Source: Escherichia coli (lineage in GTDB: Bacteria > Pseudomonadota > Gammaproteobacteria > Enterobacterales > Enterobacteriaceae). From it: a DNA stretch of 64,000 nt. Shown here one piece after another: positions 1 to 6,000 of this stretch. Location: the NCBI RefSeq assembly GCF_041248615.1, contig NZ_CP158426.1; one strand, written 5' to 3'. The position numbers are program-made. The first letter of the stretch is position 1; the number at the start of each line of letters is the position of its first letter.

Positions 1-3000
1 ACGCCTTATATCCTACTGGATGAACCCACAACCTGGCTTGATTTACGTTATCAGGTTGAAATTCTTGAGTTATTACATGATTTAACGCGTCATCACGGGC
101 GTACAGTCGTCGTGGTGTTGCATGATCTGAATTTTGCCGTCAATTATGGTGATACGTTGATATTTTTACGCCAGGGGAAAGTGGTGCGTGTGTTGAATGA
201 GGGGGAGCATTGCACGCCTGAGCTGGTAAAAGCTGTCTTTGACGTTGATGTTCACGCATCAATAAATCCTCTGACGGGAAAGCCGTTCTTCATGCCGTTT
301 CGTGGTGTAGAAAAAGTATGATGCGCACAGGGCTGGTTACTGTAATTTTCCTCGCCTTACTGCTGGTGGGATGCGTGGTATATCCAGGGATTGGTGCCCG
401 ATTTATTGCACCACAAACGGTGTTGCAGGCATTTCTTCATTTTGATCCGCAAAACTTCGATCACAACGTAATTGTAAGACTCCGTTTGCCGCGTTTAGCG
501 GCAGCATTGCTTACCGGTGCTTCTCTTGGAGTTGCTGGTGCTTTGTTGCAGGCTGTCATTCGTAACCCATTGGGGGAGCCACATATTTTAGGCTTAAATG
601 CCGGAGCCGCTCTTGCTGTCGTTGCTGCCACTGCGCTTGGGCTGGCCTTTCCGGTTGGACGGCCACTGCTGGCATCTACGGGCGGCGCGTTATTGTTCCT
701 GTTGATATTGCTGCTTTCCTCCGCAGGGCGTTCAGGGTTAACGCCAATGAAAGTTACTTTATGCGGCGTGGCGCTATCGGCGTTCGTGTCCTCAATAACG
801 GCTGCAATCCTGATTCTTGACGAACAAACACTGCTGGCGATGCGGACATGGCTAGCAGGTGATTTAGCGGGGCAGGATTGGGTGACGCTGGGTACGTCCG
901 CCTGGTTTTCTCTGGGGGGATTTGTGTTAGCCATTTACCTTGCGCCCTCTCTTAACATGTTGGCACTGGGTGATCGCATAGCGCAGGGGCTGGGCGTCTC
1001 GGTACTCCGCACGCGAACATTCACCCTGCTTGCGATCGCGTTGCTCTGTGGCGCAGCCGTATCGATTGCTGGCCCCATTGGTTTTGTCGGCCTGCTAGTA
1101 CCGCAGATTGTCCGGCGTCTGGTATCAGCGGATCTGCGCGTTCTGCTCCCTCTTTCAGCTTGTGTCGGCGCGCTTTTGTTATTACTGGCAGATATTATTG
1201 CTCGGACGCTTTTCACGCCCCATGAGTTAGCGACCGGTGTCATGACGGCGTTAGTTGGTGCGCCTGTTTTTGTCATTATGGCGACGAGGATGTTCAAATG
1301 AGTCGGATAATGAACGTCGGGCTACGTCCACTACGTGTTGGTAAGTTTTCGACACTGGTACGCCCTAAAAATCTGGTGTTGCTTGGTGGGCTGTTTCTGT
1401 TTGCGGTTGGAATACTGATATTCGGTCTGATGCATGGTTCTTTTTCTGTCCCGGCATCGGAAGTAGGACGAGCGTTGTTTGCTCCAGAAAACGTAAGCAC
1501 AGACGCACGTTATATTGTGCAGGATATTCGCTTGCCGAGAGTCATCATGGCATTGCTATGCGGAGCCATGTTAGGTATGGCGGGGGCCGCGATGCAATCC
1601 ATTGCGCGTAACGGCCTTGCCGATCCTGGTTTAATCGGCGTCAAAGAAGGATGTAGCGTGGCGGTGCTGTGGCTGATTTTCCAGTTTCCAATGCTGGGAA
1701 TGTTCTGGCGTCCAGTGGCTGGTCTTGCTGGTGGCTTGTTGGTGGCTTTAATCGTGATTTTTTGTGCACGCGATATTTCCCGCCCGCGATTTGTTCTGAT
1801 TGGTATTGGTGTTTCCTGGTTTTTCGCCGCCGGTATCGGTGTATTTATGACCACTGCAGATGTTCGAGATGTACAAACTGCATTGATGTGGTTATCGGGA
1901 AGCCTGCATGCAGCTAACTGGATGTTAGTCGGTATTTCAGCCTGTTGGATGTTGCCAGCCGCTCTTTTATTGCTGTTCACCGCCAGGACGGCGGATATCG
2001 CTCTGCTTGGTCATCAGGTTGCAACCGGGTTAGGGGTGAATAGTTCTCGTCTGGCGTTGTTACGTGTCGCCGCACCAATAATCCTGACAGCCGTCTGCGT
2101 TTCGTGTGTTGGTAACATCGGTTTTGTCGGATTGATAGCACCCCATATATCACGTTTTATTCTACGTGGCGGGCAGACGACATTACTGCTGGGGAGCGCC
2201 GTATCGGGGGCGTTGTTAGTCATCCTGGCGGATAGCATTGGTCGTTTGGCTTTTTTGCCTTTGCAACTGCCTGCCGGAATCATTATTTCATTGATTGGTG
2301 GACCATTCTTTTTGCTACTGCTCTGGCAGCGCAGGAACAGTTTTTAATGGGAGTTATATGCGTTTATTTTTTTCTCTGCTGATACTGTTGTCATTCTTTG
2401 CCCGCGCGACAGAACCTGTTCAGGTCTTTACTGATGATTTAGGGCGCAAAGTCACTGTTCCTGCTCATCCAAAGAGAATTGTCTCTTTACACGATCTTGA
2501 TATCACTATTCCTCTGATTGAGCTCGGTGTACCTCCTGTCGCCAGCCACGGACGAACCCGGCCTGACGGTAGCCATTTCATTCGATCAGGCGCGTTATTG
2601 ACAGGTGTCGACTTTGATAATTCATCGATCGCTTTTATTGGCACCGCTGATATTGATATTGAAGCGATTGTGGCGGCAAAGCCTGACCTGATCATCACAG
2701 AACCGACCCGTAATACGCCCATTGAACAACTGGAAAAAATTGCGCCCACGGTGAGCATTGATCATCTCAAAGGAGGCGCGCCAGAAATCTACCGCAAGCT
2801 GGCAGAACTTACAGGAACGCAGTCGCAGCTGGCGATACTTGAACGCCGCTATCAGGCACAAATCAATGCGCTGAAGGCGACGCTGGACAGCCAAAAAATA
2901 ACGGTATCGGTGATTCAGGCAAATCAGGGAAAAATTAATGTGATGCATAGCTATCATTCGCTGGGGCGGGTATTACGCGATGCTGGTTTTCGCTTTCCGC

Positions 3001-6000
3001 CGCTGATTGAGAGCATTCCTGAAGGTGGGCGAATGGATGTGAGCGCAGAGCGTTTACCTGAACTGGATGCCGATTTTGTTTTTGCAACCTGGCGCGGTGA
3101 CACCGGTGGTAAACCTCAGGATGAGCTGGCAGCAATGGAAAAAGTCATGCCGGGATGGTGTCAGTTTCTGACGGCCTGTCGTTCCGGGCGCTATGTGCTG
3201 ATTTCTCGTGAAGAGGCGATTTCTAACTCCTTTGCATCTCTGGGGCTGATGGCTGCGCAGATACAATCACAAATTGCGGGACGACCTCTACCGGAGGCTA
3301 AATGATCCAGAAAGACAAAACGCGGGTTGATATTTATGGTGAGCGTTTTCGCACTCGCGCGAGTCAGTTAACGCCTGGGTTAAGAACTGTCGCAAGCTAC
3401 ATTAATGAGCATCGTGAAGTGGTACTCGAGCAAACGGCGATGGAAATTGCGGCCACGTTGAACACTTCCGATGCCACAGTTATCAGGGCTATACAGGCTC
3501 TGGGGTTTGCCGGGCTGCGTGATCTGAAACGCACACTGGAACAGTGGCTTGGTCCAGCCCTTAGTTCCAGCGAAAAGATGTCTACGACGGTGAGTAACTT
3601 GACGAGCGATGTTAACACCGCAATCGACTTTGTTCTTGAAGGGCATTTGTATACTTGTAATGTCCTGTCAGAGCCTGAAAACCGCCACGCGCTTGCGCAA
3701 GCTGTAGCGTTGTTGGTGCAGGCACGGCAAGTCGCTATTTTTGGCATTGGCGCTTCGGGTATCCTGGCGGACTATACCGCACGACTATTCAACCGCATAG
3801 GTTTGCCTGCCACGGCACTAAACCGTACGGGTATTGGCCTTGCCGAGCAACTGATCGCGCTTCAACGTGGCGATGTTCTGATCATGATGGCGCAAAAATC
3901 TGCGCACCGGGAAGGGCTGACAACGCTTCGTGAGGCGAGGCGGCTGGGGATCCCTGTTATTTTGCTGACAAACGCGCTGGATTCACGTTTTAGCAAAGAC
4001 GCCAGTATCGTGATTCATGTTCCGCGCGGGGATGAAAAGGGGAAAACGCCACTACATGGTACGGTATTGTTGTGCCTGGAAATGATTGTTTGGTCGGTGG
4101 CTTCCGCGATGCCGCAGCGTGCGGTTAAAACCATTAAGCGAATTAACGATTTCCATCGGGGTTTGAAAACGGGAAGAAAGAATGGCTAATCTGACCTGAG
4201 GCCGGTAGCAACACCGGCCTCTTTTCAGGAATGTTAAATCCCCGGTTGCAGAATACGGATATTCATCTCCAGCACGTCGCCTTTTACGGCTTCGCTGTAC
4301 GCCTTCATGTGCGGGGTTTGCAGATGCGCTTCAAGATGCGCGATGCTTTCCCACTGCTCAATCATCACGATAGAATCCGGTGCCATAGACTGGAAACTCA
4401 CGCCAGCAGCGCAATCCACCATTGGCGCATAGCCGTGGCAACCTTCTTCTTTCAGTACGGTTGGAACGATTTTAGCAAACTGATCCAATACTGCCTGACG
4501 GTGATGTTGACCAGGACGAGTACGGATTTCTGCGATTACGGTAAGCATGGTTAACTCCTTCTAAAGCCTGAGCTCTAGTTAACCAAAAATTTCCACAAGA
4601 TGCTTGCGATATTCTTCAGTATAGCGGGGAACATCAGGCATTTTTATCACGTCATTAGCGATAAATGTCGGCAGCGGTTCCATGCCAAGGAATTGGTTTG
4701 CTTTATGGAACGGCAGATACACACCGTCAACGCCAACGCCGTGGAAGAACTGATCTTTTTCGGTGAAGGCTTCCATTGGTGCGTTCCAGGTCAGAGAAAG
4801 CATATATTTTTTGCCCTGTACCAGGCCGCCGGAACCGTATTTTTTCGACGGATCTTTGCGGGTACGACCATCGCTGGCATACAGCGTCCCGTGACCTTCG
4901 GTGAATACATCATCAATGTATTTTTTCACTGTCCACGGCGCGCCCATCCACCAGCCTGGCATCTGCCAAATCACCACATCAGCCCAGAGAAAGTTTTGTA
5001 CTTCCGCTTTGACATCGTAGTCGCTGTCGGCGCGAACGATGCGGACATCATGCCCGAGGTCGCGCAGTGTGCCATCCGCGACTTCGGTCAGGGTGTCGTT
5101 CAGTTGACCATTGGAGTGGGCGAATTTTTTCGCGCCGTTGATAATCAGGATGTTGCTCATTTTTTAACCTCAAGGTGAGACGTTTGTCGACTATAGTACG
5201 TCACAGAGCGGTACGGTGAAATTAGCAAAATGTGCAAAGTCTTTTGCTAATTTAGCAAAAGTCTGATCTTGCTCTGACTCACCGATGCAGGATAAATATT
5301 TTCTGAAAATGACAATACTGATAGCAATTTCTCATCATTCCAACTAGCACAGGGTTAATTTACAACGTTGGTGTGGACTTTCTGCGAGTTGATAATTGTG
5401 GTGATGCTGCCAACTTACTGATTTAGTGTATGATGGTGTTTTTGAGGTGCTCCAGTGGCTTCTGTTTCTATCAGCTGTCCCTCCTGTTCAGCTACTGACG
5501 GGGTGGTGCGTAACGGCAAAAGCACTGCCGGACATCAGCGCTATCTCTGCTCTCACTGCCGTAAAACATGGCAACTGCAGTTCACTTACACCGCTTCTCA
5601 ACCCGGTACGCACCAGAAAATCATTGATATGGCCATGAATGGCGTTGGATGCCGGGCAACCGCCCGCATTATGGGCGTTGGCCTCAACACGATTTTCCGC
5701 CATTTAAAAAACTCAGGCCGCAGTCGGTAACCTCGCGCATACAGCCGGGCAGTGACGTCATCGTCTGCGCGGAAATGGACGAACAGTGGGGATACGTCGG
5801 GGCTAAATCGCGCCAGCGCTGGCTGTTTTACGCGTATGACAGGCTCCGGAAGACGGTTGTTGCGCACGTATTCGGTGAACGCACTATGGCGACGCTGGGG
5901 CGTCTTATGAGCCTGCTGTCACCCTTTGACGTGGTGATATGGATGACGGATGGCTGGCCGCTGTATGAATCCCGCCTGAAGGGAAAGCTGCACGTAATCA

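What the first reader, a model, noticed from the sequence alone, without database searches (positions are those of the whole stretch)
1..4189. Accessory FecCD-type ABC importer coupled to an RpiR/SIS regulator next to ygiN
An ATPase, two FecCD permeases and a class III periplasmic binding protein are translationally coupled by overlapping start and stop codons, in an unusual order (ATPase, permeases, binding protein), and end in an RpiR-family regulator. RpiR/SIS regulators normally sense phosphosugars, whereas this transporter class imports siderophores, heme or cobalamin-like ligands. The pairing hints at a sugar-containing metallophore or other non-canonical substrate. From memory, K-12 has parE at this position and lacks the cassette.
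Basis: partly seen in the sequence, partly recalled or inferred. Interest (0 to 1): 0.55.

Follow-up and report, generated by a model that had tools for sequence, protein, structure and literature searches.

The report
The known E. coli fit iron-uptake operon
The cassette is the published 'fit' iron-uptake system of pathogenic E. coli, whose RpiR-type repressor FitR and binding protein FitE have been studied experimentally, so it is not new, although its iron carrier and FitR's signal are still unknown.

Summary
Window 1-4189 holds the 3' five-sixths of the E. coli fit locus: fitB (ATPase, cut by the window edge), fitC, fitD, fitE and fitR. The receptor gene fitA and the shared promoter lie just upstream of the window. 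Eleven of the 12 published primer sites expected inside the window match with 0-2 mismatches, and FitE matches the crystallised FitE (PDB 3BE5/3BE6).

The locus is in 1870 of 5426 complete E. coli genomes.

The RpiR pairing is not new. FitR was shown in 2008 to be an autorepressor that binds the fitA-fitB intergenic DNA and acts independently of Fur. The substrate was still reported unknown in 2018.

New here:
- FitR orthologues sit next to a TonB-dependent receptor in 75 of 82 Enterobacterales loci examined.
- A conserved TGTAGT/ACTACA box overlaps the -35 of both predicted fit promoters. It is the half-site footprinted for RccR, FitR's closest solved relative, so it is the likely FitR operator.
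- FitR lacks three of the four serines that bind sugar phosphate in RpiR regulators, which weakens the sugar-metallophore idea.
- The parE-fit-ygiN arrangement recurs in Enterobacter, which suggests loss in K-12 rather than recent gain.

The parts
1..321 (+). fitB, 3' end (ABC ATPase; last 106 codons plus stop). The gene starts 489 bp upstream of the window.
   Evidence: NCBIfam best matches are FecE, heme and enterobactin ATPases. The full 269-aa gene is seen in the identical records L001 and L087. The published fitB qPCR primers map exactly in L001.
318..1301 (+). fitC, FecCD-family permease (327 aa). Its start overlaps the fitB stop (ATGA).
   Evidence: ORF. NCBIfam FecC/FepD/FhuB-like, E 1e-69. 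Published fitC primers map at 937-956 and 1013-1032 with 1-2 mismatches.
1298..2347 (+). fitD, second FecCD-family permease. The start is ATG 1298 (overlapping the fitC stop) or ATG 1310 (RefSeq).
   Evidence: ORF. NCBIfam FhuB C-half/FecD-like, E 1e-57. Published fitD primers map exactly at 2002-2021 and 2042-2061. Sequence at the junction.
2358..3305 (+). fitE, class III (Peripla_BP_2) periplasmic siderophore-binding protein with a signal peptide (315 aa).
   Evidence: Residues 19-315 match the PDB 3BE5/3BE6 chain over its full length, E 2e-195, with 2 substitutions. Named E. coli FitE in PMC2966073. fitE primers map with 1 mismatch each.
3302..4189 (+). fitR, MurR/RpiR-family repressor (HTH_6 + SIS, 295 aa). 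Its start overlaps the fitE stop (ATGA).
   Evidence: fitR1 and fitR qPCR primers map exactly. Pfam PF01418+PF01380 on orthologues. Best solved relatives are RccR 8K3B, NanR 4IVN and 3SHO. Function shown in PMC2593036.
4198..4225 (.). GC-rich hairpin plus UUUU between the convergent fitR and ygiN genes; a likely terminator, and the right edge of the fit-specific DNA.
   Evidence: Window 4188-4232 folds at -23.3 kcal/mol, z = -5.2 against shuffles. The consensus terminator scan did not call it because the T run is only 4. Similarity to K-12 begins at about 4234.

Best explanation
This is the fit system, a TonB-dependent ferric-siderophore importer.

How it works:
- FitA, encoded just upstream of the window, takes an iron chelate across the outer membrane.
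- FitE binds the chelate in the periplasm.
- FitC, FitD and the ATPase FitB pump it into the cell.
- No biosynthesis genes accompany the locus in any genus examined, so it most likely pirates a siderophore made by other organisms. My weak guess is an anionic hydroxamate/carboxylate type.

Regulation:
- Transcription runs from two divergent promoters between fitA and fitB.
- It is repressed independently by Fur-Fe2+ and by FitR. FitR is the last gene of the operon, so it represses itself.

Shown by others: iron/Fur repression, FitR repression, specific FitR binding to the intergenic fragment, and the FitE structure.

Inferred here:
- FitR binds conserved TGTAGT/ACTACA boxes that overlap the -35 of both predicted promoters. 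Two main boxes lie 165-190 bp apart, with a third half-site 31 bp from the first. This suits a tetrameric RpiR protein.
- Fur binds the conserved Fur-like blocks at or just after the -10 elements.
- FitR's SIS pocket is remodelled, so its effector, if there is one, is probably not a canonical sugar phosphate.
- The locus is old at the parE-ygiN site and was lost from K-12-like lineages.
For: Identity:
- Of the 12 primer sites expected inside the window, 11 match with 0-2 mismatches and the fitR2 forward primer with 3. The six fitA, fitB and promoter primers match L001 exactly, and L001 is 100% identical to window 1-4600.
- FitE equals 3BE5/3BE6.
- The window equals NZ_LT599825.1 864001-928000, where the whole locus is intact.

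Function of the parts: NCBIfam matches. FitA falls in the TonB-dependent siderophore receptor subfamily and is closest to FhuA/FoxA/FhuE-type models, but below every equivalog cut-off.

Regulation, published in PMC2593036:
- fitB-lacZ gave 139 units, 43 with extra FitR and 211 in a fitR mutant.
- EMSA binding was competed by unlabelled probe.

Operator inference:
- The 9-mer TGTAGTAGT/ACTACTACA is present in 74 of 75 receptor-proximal intergenic regions from many genera. Two inverted copies are present in nearly all full loci.
- The hexamer occurs 2.72 times per region against 0.2-0.28 expected.
- The 9-mer is absent from the entire 64-kb window.
- The boxes sit in two islands of 100% identity within an alignment averaging 57%.
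- RccR, FitR's best solved sequence match, was footprinted on TGTAGT/ACTACA. Its aceA site even contains TGTAGTAGT (PMC11014249). RccR is a tetramer.
- Both boxes lie inside the published EMSA fragment.

Coupling of FitR to uptake genes: 55 loci have fitA<->fitBCDE-fitR, and 20 have another TonB receptor next to fitR.

Origin: parE-fit-ygiN synteny is also found in Escherichia whittamii, a cryptic Escherichia clade, Enterobacter, Silvania and Huaxiibacter. Fit protein divergence there (72-90%) is similar to that of YgiN and MdaB (80-89%).
Against: - I could not read the primary 2006 paper, so iron transport rests on secondary citations.
- The substrate is unknown; enterobactin is reported not to be it.
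- FitR's measured effect is small (2-5 fold), and no effector has been reported.
- The operator assignment rests on conservation and analogy. Another RpiR protein of the host, such as HexR, could bind the same boxes.
- The promoter scan found no consensus sigma-70 promoter in the intergenic region, so the -35/-10 assignments are mine.
- The Fur-like blocks match the 19-bp consensus at only about 13/19.
- Ancestral presence versus transfer by recombination through the flanking genes cannot be separated by synteny alone. Salmonella, Kosakonia and Raoultella carry the module elsewhere.
Confidence: 0.85

Rival explanations
1. The transporter imports a sugar-containing or phosphorylated metallophore, and FitR senses the resulting phosphosugar through its SIS domain, giving substrate induction.
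For: FitR has the RpiR fold, and every effector known for solved relatives is a sugar phosphate. Some relatives carry one or two PstS-like (phosphate-binding-protein-like) genes, in three loci together with a PepSY_TM gene, between fitE and fitR. These are L005, L043, L045 and the distant L091.
Against: Three of the four phosphate-coordinating serines are replaced: RccR S183, S185 and S188 correspond to FitR A197, K199 and H202. K199 and H202 are invariant in the 14 aligned FitR orthologues; position 197 is Ala or Gly. The E. coli locus has no PstS-like genes. FitA and FitE resemble ordinary siderophore receptors and binding proteins. No sugar-processing gene is linked in any genus.
Confidence: 0.1
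2. FitR reports central carbon status, for example KDPG as for RccR/HexR, and ties expression of this iron system to carbon source rather than to the transported ligand.
For: The closest solved relative is the KDPG sensor RccR, and the DNA half-site is the same. FitR keeps basic residues (R161, R165) at positions aligned with RccR H148 and R152, which contact KDPG.
Against: The phosphate-binding loop is not conserved. FitR orthologues are dedicated neighbours of TonB-dependent receptor genes in 75 of 82 loci, which is not a global-regulator pattern. The 9-mer box occurs nowhere else in the 64-kb window.
Confidence: 0.1
3. FitR has no small-molecule effector and simply damps and stabilises expression by negative autoregulation, on top of Fur.
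For: Only 2-5 fold effects were measured, no inducer is known, and fitR is co-transcribed as the last gene.
Against: The SIS-domain loop residues Q198, K199, S200, H202, R203 and E204 are invariant across genera. That suggests a conserved binding site rather than a vestigial domain. RpiR relatives all switch on ligand binding.
Confidence: 0.2
4. The cassette is a recently acquired pathogenicity islet inserted between parE and ygiN in pathogenic lineages, rather than an old locus lost from K-12-like strains.
For: Patchy distribution: 1870 of 5426 genomes, all-or-none. It is reported as enriched in ExPEC/AIEC phylogroup B2 and absent from commensals HS, IAI1 and SE11. The module sits elsewhere in Salmonella, Kosakonia and Raoultella.
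Against: There are no integrase, tRNA, IS or direct repeats at the junctions, and the composition is ordinary. The same parE-fit-ygiN position is found in other Escherichia species and in Enterobacter, Silvania and Huaxiibacter, with divergence like that of the flanking genes.
Confidence: 0.25

Closest known systems
E. coli fit system, fitA / fitBCDE-fitR (Ouyang & Isaacson 2006, 2008; FitE structures 3BE5/3BE6)
   Same: It is the same locus: primers, gene order, FitE sequence and the parE-ygiN setting all agree. A 7.2-kb 'fit operon' region is listed in ExPEC strain BEN2908.
   Different: Nothing essential differs. FitE has 2 substitutions relative to the crystallised protein. The window holds only part of fitB and lacks fitA and the promoter.
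FhuACDB, FecABCDE, FepA/BDGC and BtuB/CDF (TonB-dependent receptor plus type II ABC importer)
   Same: The same module: a plug-and-barrel receptor, a class III binding protein, FecCD permeases and an ATPase, under Fur control (PMC2593036).
   Different: No component reaches any NCBIfam equivalog cut-off, so the specificity is distinct. It has its own cytoplasmic repressor. Of the well-studied E. coli iron transporters, only fec has a dedicated regulator (PMC2593036); that regulator works by FecA-FecR-FecI surface signalling and activation, by my own knowledge.
RccR and HexR (Pseudomonas RpiR-family repressors, KDPG-responsive; PDB 8K3B/8JU9)
   Same: Best solved sequence and fold match to FitR. 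Same HTH_6+SIS architecture. The same DNA half-site TGTAGT/ACTACA with variable spacing, and autoregulation.
   Different: About 22% identity. FitR lacks three of the four phosphate-binding serines. It controls an iron-uptake operon rather than carbon metabolism. The box spacings are 25 nt and about 160-180 nt, against 3 and 16 nt in RccR sites.
Bacillus cereus YfiY (ferric schizokinen; 3TNY), Staphylococcus aureus SirA (staphyloferrin B) and Bacillus subtilis FhuD
   Same: These are the nearest solved relatives of FitE after FitE itself (E 1e-15 to 1e-8). YfiY ligand contacts R91 and R112 align with FitE R118 and K138.
   Different: Low identity. YfiY T110 aligns with FitE H136. No ligand-bound FitE structure is known to me, so the ligand class remains a guess.

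Membership tests
E. coli fit iron-uptake system | Gene content and order: divergent TonB-dependent receptor, then ATPase, two permeases, binding protein and HTH+SIS regulator. | tested here: met
   fitA and the 5' end of fitB lie outside the window but are present in the source record.
E. coli fit iron-uptake system | Sequence identity with the published fit genes. | tested here: met
   Of 18 published primers, 17 map to the expected genes with 0-2 mismatches. The fitR2 forward primer has 3, at the start of fitR.
E. coli fit iron-uptake system | FitE protein equals the crystallised E. coli FitE. | tested here: met
   3BE5/3BE6, E 2e-195, 295 of 297 residues identical. Named FitE in PMC2966073.
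E. coli fit iron-uptake system | Repression by Fur-Fe and by FitR, and FitR binding to the fitA-fitB intergenic DNA. | not testable with these tools
   Published for strain i484 (PMC2593036). Here there are only conserved candidate sites.
E. coli fit iron-uptake system | Iron uptake activity. | not testable with these tools
   The primary paper is not held.
Type II ABC importers for siderophore, heme or cobalamin | Two FecCD-family membrane domains, an ABC ATPase and a Peripla_BP_2 (class III) binding protein. | tested here: met
Type II ABC importers for siderophore, heme or cobalamin | A partner TonB-dependent receptor. | tested here: met
   TIGR01783, 372.8 bits against a cut-off of 223.5. 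It lies adjacent and divergent.
Type II ABC importers for siderophore, heme or cobalamin | A Fur box in the promoter. | tested here: inconclusive
   The best match to the 19-bp consensus is 13/19. However, two Fur-like blocks are invariant across ten genera. Fur dependence is published.
MurR/RpiR phosphosugar-responsive regulators | N-terminal HTH_6 and C-terminal SIS domain. | tested here: met
   PF01418+PF01380 on orthologues. NCBIfam MurR/RpiR matches. Foldseek top hits are RccR, NanR and 3SHO.
MurR/RpiR phosphosugar-responsive regulators | Four conserved Ser/Thr that bind the effector's phosphate (RccR S139, S183, S185, S188). | tested here: not met
   Only S152 (aligned with S139) is kept. 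The other three positions are A197, K199 and H202; K199 and H202 are invariant in 14 orthologues and position 197 is Ala or Gly. The residue roles come from PMC11014249.
MurR/RpiR phosphosugar-responsive regulators | Operator built of inverted half-sites of the TGTAGT/ACTACA type. | tested here: met
   The motif is present and conserved in 74 of 75 intergenic regions. It is the same half-site as the RccR footprint. Binding itself was not tested.
MurR/RpiR phosphosugar-responsive regulators | A sugar-phosphate effector releases the protein from DNA. | not testable with these tools
   No effector is reported for FitR.
Horizontally acquired genomic island | Mobility genes, a tRNA target or direct repeats at the junctions. 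| tested here: not met
   None at either junction. K-12 keeps only the parE terminator stem.
Horizontally acquired genomic island | Composition that deviates from the flanks. | tested here: not met
   GC is 0.46-0.56 across 1-4200, like the neighbouring core genes.
Horizontally acquired genomic island | Patchy presence within the species. | tested here: met
   1870 of 5426 complete genomes, all-or-none.
Horizontally acquired genomic island | A different chromosomal position in related genera. | tested here: inconclusive
   Same parE-ygiN site in Enterobacter, Silvania and Huaxiibacter. Other sites in Salmonella, Kosakonia and Raoultella.

The most novel reading that the evidence does not exclude
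FitR defines a widespread Enterobacterales clade of RpiR regulators dedicated to TonB-dependent iron-chelate uptake. Its SIS pocket has exchanged three phosphate-binding serines for Ala, Lys and His. It senses a non-phosphosugar ligand, possibly the imported anionic siderophore or a breakdown product. It releases TGTAGT boxes at the -35 of both fit promoters, adding substrate induction to Fur control. The related operons that carry PstS-like and PepSY_TM genes would be fuller versions of the same pathway.
Probability: 0.3. Interest if true: 0.45.

Novelty: already known. Interest (0 to 1): 0.18.

Why it matters
As a discovery it does not matter. The cassette was named and characterised in 2006-2009 and is used as an ExPEC/AIEC marker. 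Two open questions remain attached to it, and the results here make them directly testable.

1. What iron chelate does Fit carry? FitA is a candidate virulence-associated marker, and the substrate was still reported unknown in 2018.
2. What does an RpiR/SIS repressor sense in an iron system?

The results here supply:
- a concrete operator to mutate (the TGTAGT boxes);
- a concrete pocket difference to probe (A197, K199, H202);
- natural variants, namely receptor-only loci and loci with PstS-like and PepSY_TM genes, that could reveal the ligand.

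Tried and rejected
- Reading the primary 2006 paper failed by PMC id and by DOI. What it showed is therefore taken from later papers.
- Literature searches for a defined Fit substrate found none. A 2018 paper says it is unknown, and a 2022 paper says no data exist beyond domain content.
- The consensus promoter scan of the fitA-fitB region found nothing. The terminator scan missed the fitR-ygiN hairpin, which folding supports.
- No Rfam family was found in 1-8000. No PADLOC defence-system match was found for FitA, FitE or FitR.
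- The junction comparison gave no direct repeats. Similarity of the K-12 spacer to the right junction was not significant. Only the parE-side terminator stem is shared.
- The AlphaFold model of FitR was good only for the SIS domain (pLDDT about 65-92 over residues 100-270; mean 66.8). The HTH domain scored below 50, so no pocket geometry or DNA docking was attempted.
- More distant FitR-like proteins (42-51% identity) are not all iron-linked. P0124 and P0129 have unrelated neighbours, so the iron link holds for the close clade and for P0128 only.
I do not use it as evidence.
- Helical phasing of the two boxes is roughly kept, with spacing classes of about 165, 178 and 187 bp. I do not rely on this.

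Full report
**What is in the sequence.** Window 1-4189 carries five co-directional genes on the + strand:
- the last 106 codons of an ABC ATPase (1-321);
- two FecCD permeases (318-1301, and 1298 or 1310 to 2347);
- a Peripla_BP_2 binding protein (2358-3305);
- an HTH_6+SIS regulator (3302-4189).

ygiN and mdaB follow convergently. NCBIfam places the first four among Fec/Fep/Fhu/Btu-type iron-compound importers, all below every equivalog cut-off. It places the fifth in MurR/RpiR.

The sequence shows ATGA start/stop overlaps at 318-321 and 3302-3305. It shows one at 1298-1301 if fitD uses the upstream ATG, which has a GAGGA 8 nt before it. fitD and fitE are separated by a 10-nt gap containing a GGGAG.

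**What it is.** The region is 100% identical to complete E. coli chromosomes in which a divergent TonB-dependent siderophore receptor gene precedes the ATPase gene, and the whole block lies between parE and ygiN. The window itself is NZ_LT599825.1 (strain NRZ14408), positions 864001-928000.

A text search led to Ouyang & Isaacson 2008 (PMC2593036), which describes the E. coli fit system: fitA (receptor), fitB (ATPase), fitC and fitD (permeases), fitE (binding protein) and fitR (HTH+SIS). I mapped all 18 primers printed in that paper:
- The fitC, fitD, fitE and fitR primers land in the corresponding window genes with 0-2 mismatches.
- The fitA, fitB and promoter primers land exactly in the upstream part of the identical record.
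- Only the fitR2 forward primer has 3 mismatches, at the fitR start.

Residues 19-315 of the window's binding protein match the chains of PDB 3BE5/3BE6 end to end (E 2e-195, two substitutions). Other papers name that protein E. coli FitE. The identification is therefore direct.

**What was already known.** According to PMC2593036:
- FitR over-expression represses fitA and fitB reporters about 3-fold, and a fitR knockout de-represses them.
- Purified FitR shifts the fitA-fitB intergenic fragment, and unlabelled probe competes.
- The authors noted the SIS domain and left the binding sites open.

Later papers add the following:
- fitA is used as an AIEC/B2 marker.
- A 7.2-kb 'fit operon' region is listed in ExPEC genomes.
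- The substrate is stated to be unknown, and enterobactin is not it.

I could not obtain the 2006 primary paper. From memory, not checked here, the FitE structure paper (Shi et al. 2009) describes an arginine-lined pocket and suggests an anionic siderophore.

**Distribution and origin.**
- The locus is present in 1870 of 5426 complete E. coli genomes. The 81-bp promoter block is found in exactly the same 1870, once each in nearly all, so presence is all-or-none.
- K-12 has a 47-bp parE-ygiN spacer.
- The junctions carry no repeats, IS elements, tRNA or integrase, and the GC content is ordinary. K-12 shares only the parE-side terminator stem with fit-positive strains.
- The same parE-fit-ygiN order occurs in Escherichia whittamii, a cryptic Escherichia clade, many Enterobacter species, Silvania and Huaxiibacter.
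- Fit proteins in those genera are 72-90% identical to the E. coli ones. This is similar to YgiN (80-84%) and MdaB (84-90%).

I therefore favour an old locus that was lost from K-12-like lineages over a recent insertion. Salmonella, Kosakonia and Raoultella carry the module elsewhere, so transfer also occurs.

**The regulator is dedicated to uptake genes.** FitR orthologues (66-98% identity) were recovered from 80 species of Enterobacterales. By tblastn across 82 loci, which include a few fetched by other routes:
- 55 have the full fitA<->fitBCDE-fitR arrangement.
- 20 (Pantoea, Serratia, Erwinia) have only fitR, divergent from a different TonB-dependent siderophore receptor that is 34-38% identical to FitA, and no ABC genes.
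- 3 (L005, L043, L045) have extra genes between fitE and fitR. In L005 these are a PepSY_TM gene and two PstS-like genes.

A 45%-identical relative in a distant genome again sits at the end of a receptor-ABC-binding protein-PstS-like operon. Two other distant relatives do not. No siderophore biosynthesis genes accompany the module anywhere, which fits uptake of a foreign siderophore.

**A candidate FitR operator.**
- The E. coli intergenic region has an inverted repeat, AATGTAGTAGTAAA / TTGACTACTACATT, with arms 150 nt apart.
- The 9-mer TGTAGTAGT/ACTACTACA is present in 74 of 75 receptor-proximal intergenic regions. It occurs as two inverted copies 165-190 bp apart in nearly all full loci. 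It does not occur at all in the 64-kb window.
- In an alignment of ten genera averaging 57% identity, the boxes sit in two blocks of complete identity.
- My reading of the fitB side is TTGACT(-35)-17 nt-CAnnAT(-10), followed by GAGAATGAGwTTTATTTTT.
- My reading of the fitA side, in the fitA direction, is TTTACT-17 nt-TTGAAT, inside the invariant TTGAATGATTCTCA.
- The box ACTACTACA overlaps the -35 and spacer of both promoters.
- The hexamer TGTAGT/ACTACA occurs 2.72 times per region against 0.2-0.28 expected. A third copy lies 30-31 bp from the first in 34 loci. The receptor-only loci keep the same layout.
- Decisively for the assignment, RccR is the best solved sequence match to FitR. It was footprinted on TGTAGT/ACTACA half-sites with variable spacers, and its aceA site reads TGTAGTAGTC...ACTACA (PMC11014249). 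RccR works as a tetramer, which would suit widely spaced boxes.
- Both boxes lie within the fragment that FitR shifted in 2008.

This remains an inference. Binding was not tested, and a host HexR-type protein could compete for the same boxes.

**The SIS pocket is not canonical.** In RccR the KDPG phosphate is held by S139, S183, S185 and S188. The authors state that four conserved S/T do this in NanR, MurR and RccR. In the alignments, the second-loop motifs compare as follows:

| Protein (PDB) | Second-loop motif |
|---|---|
| RccR (8K3B) | SQSGRSKD |
| NanR (4IVN) | SSSGSTKE |
| c3406 (5UQI) | SNSGETAE |
| FitR | AQKSAHRE |

- Only FitR S152 (aligned with S139) is kept. A197, K199 and H202 replace the other three.
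- Q198, K199, S200, H202, R203 and E204 are invariant in 14 orthologues.
- A wider subfamily, which by my reading of its motif includes the unliganded structure 3SHO, has AYGxxYRE-like loops.
- The model of the FitR SIS domain is reasonably confident, and its nearest folds are RccR, NanR and 3SHO.

The step from 'SIS' to 'phosphosugar' is therefore unsafe here. A conserved, more basic pocket suggests a different anionic ligand. The PstS-like genes in some relatives keep a phosphate-containing ligand possible.

**Substrate guess.**
- FitA belongs to the TonB-dependent siderophore receptor subfamily and is nearest to FhuA/FoxA/FhuE-type models, below all cut-offs.
- After FitE itself, FitE's nearest solved relative is Bacillus cereus YfiY, crystallised with ferric schizokinen. 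SirA and FhuD-type proteins follow.
- Two of the three named N-lobe contacts of YfiY (R91, R112) align with basic residues of FitE (R118, K138).

I therefore lean, weakly, toward an anionic citrate-hydroxamate or carboxylate xenosiderophore.

**Verdict.** My additions are the candidate operator, the non-canonical SIS loop, the clade-wide link to TonB receptors, and the likely ancestral position. They are modest, testable refinements and not a new kind of system.

Noticed in passing
window 5400-6167: A 768-bp IS1 (IS1B-type) sits between mdaB and qseC. It replaces 384 bp that in other strains hold the promoter and the first 266 bp of ygiZ (DUF2645). There is no target-site duplication, so this looks like an IS1-mediated adjacent deletion. 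Only one complete genome (NZ_LT599825.1) matches it fully.
   Followed up: partly
window 9365-9472: The mqsR-mqsA toxin-antitoxin pair that K-12 carries between ygiV and ygiS is absent here. ygiV and ygiS are 108 bp apart. The same is true of the other fit-positive record examined, L001.
   Followed up: no
L005 7007-10004; also L043, L045, and L091 6010-7946: In some Erwinia/Pantoea-type loci, a PepSY_TM (siderophore-reductase-like) gene and two PstS-like (phosphate-binding-protein-like) genes lie between fitE and fitR. A 45%-identical FitR relative in a distant genome also follows a PstS-like gene in a receptor-ABC operon. The role of phosphate-binding-protein homologues in a siderophore operon is unexplained.
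   Followed up: partly
L041, L053, L054, L056-L058, L060, L062-L065, L067, L071, L072, L074-L076, L080, L083, L085 (receptor at about 7400-9600, fitR at about 10000-10880): In Pantoea, Serratia and Erwinia the FitR orthologue stands alone, divergent from a different TonB-dependent siderophore receptor (34-38% identical to FitA), with no ABC genes. The receptor promoter block (Fur-like block plus TGTAGTAGT) is nevertheless almost identical to the E. coli one. The promoter is thus more conserved than the receptor it drives.
   Followed up: partly
window 25206-26372: exbB-exbD lie 21 kb from the fit genes; by general knowledge these are the energy-transducing partners of TonB that receptors like FitA need. 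This is probably coincidental core-genome placement. RefSeq labels the exbB product 'tol-pal system-associated acyl-CoA thioesterase', which looks like a naming error.
   Followed up: no
window 38303-44905: Nested IS3-family elements (a partial IS1397 interrupted by ISEc31) lie upstream of sslE. sslE is annotated as frameshifted, while the downstream type II secretion (gsp-beta) cluster looks intact.
   Followed up: no
window 57976-64000: An ABC permease/ATPase pair is followed by a 3.5-kb gene and a further gene, both annotated only as hypothetical, at the far end of the window. I did not examine them.
   Followed up: no
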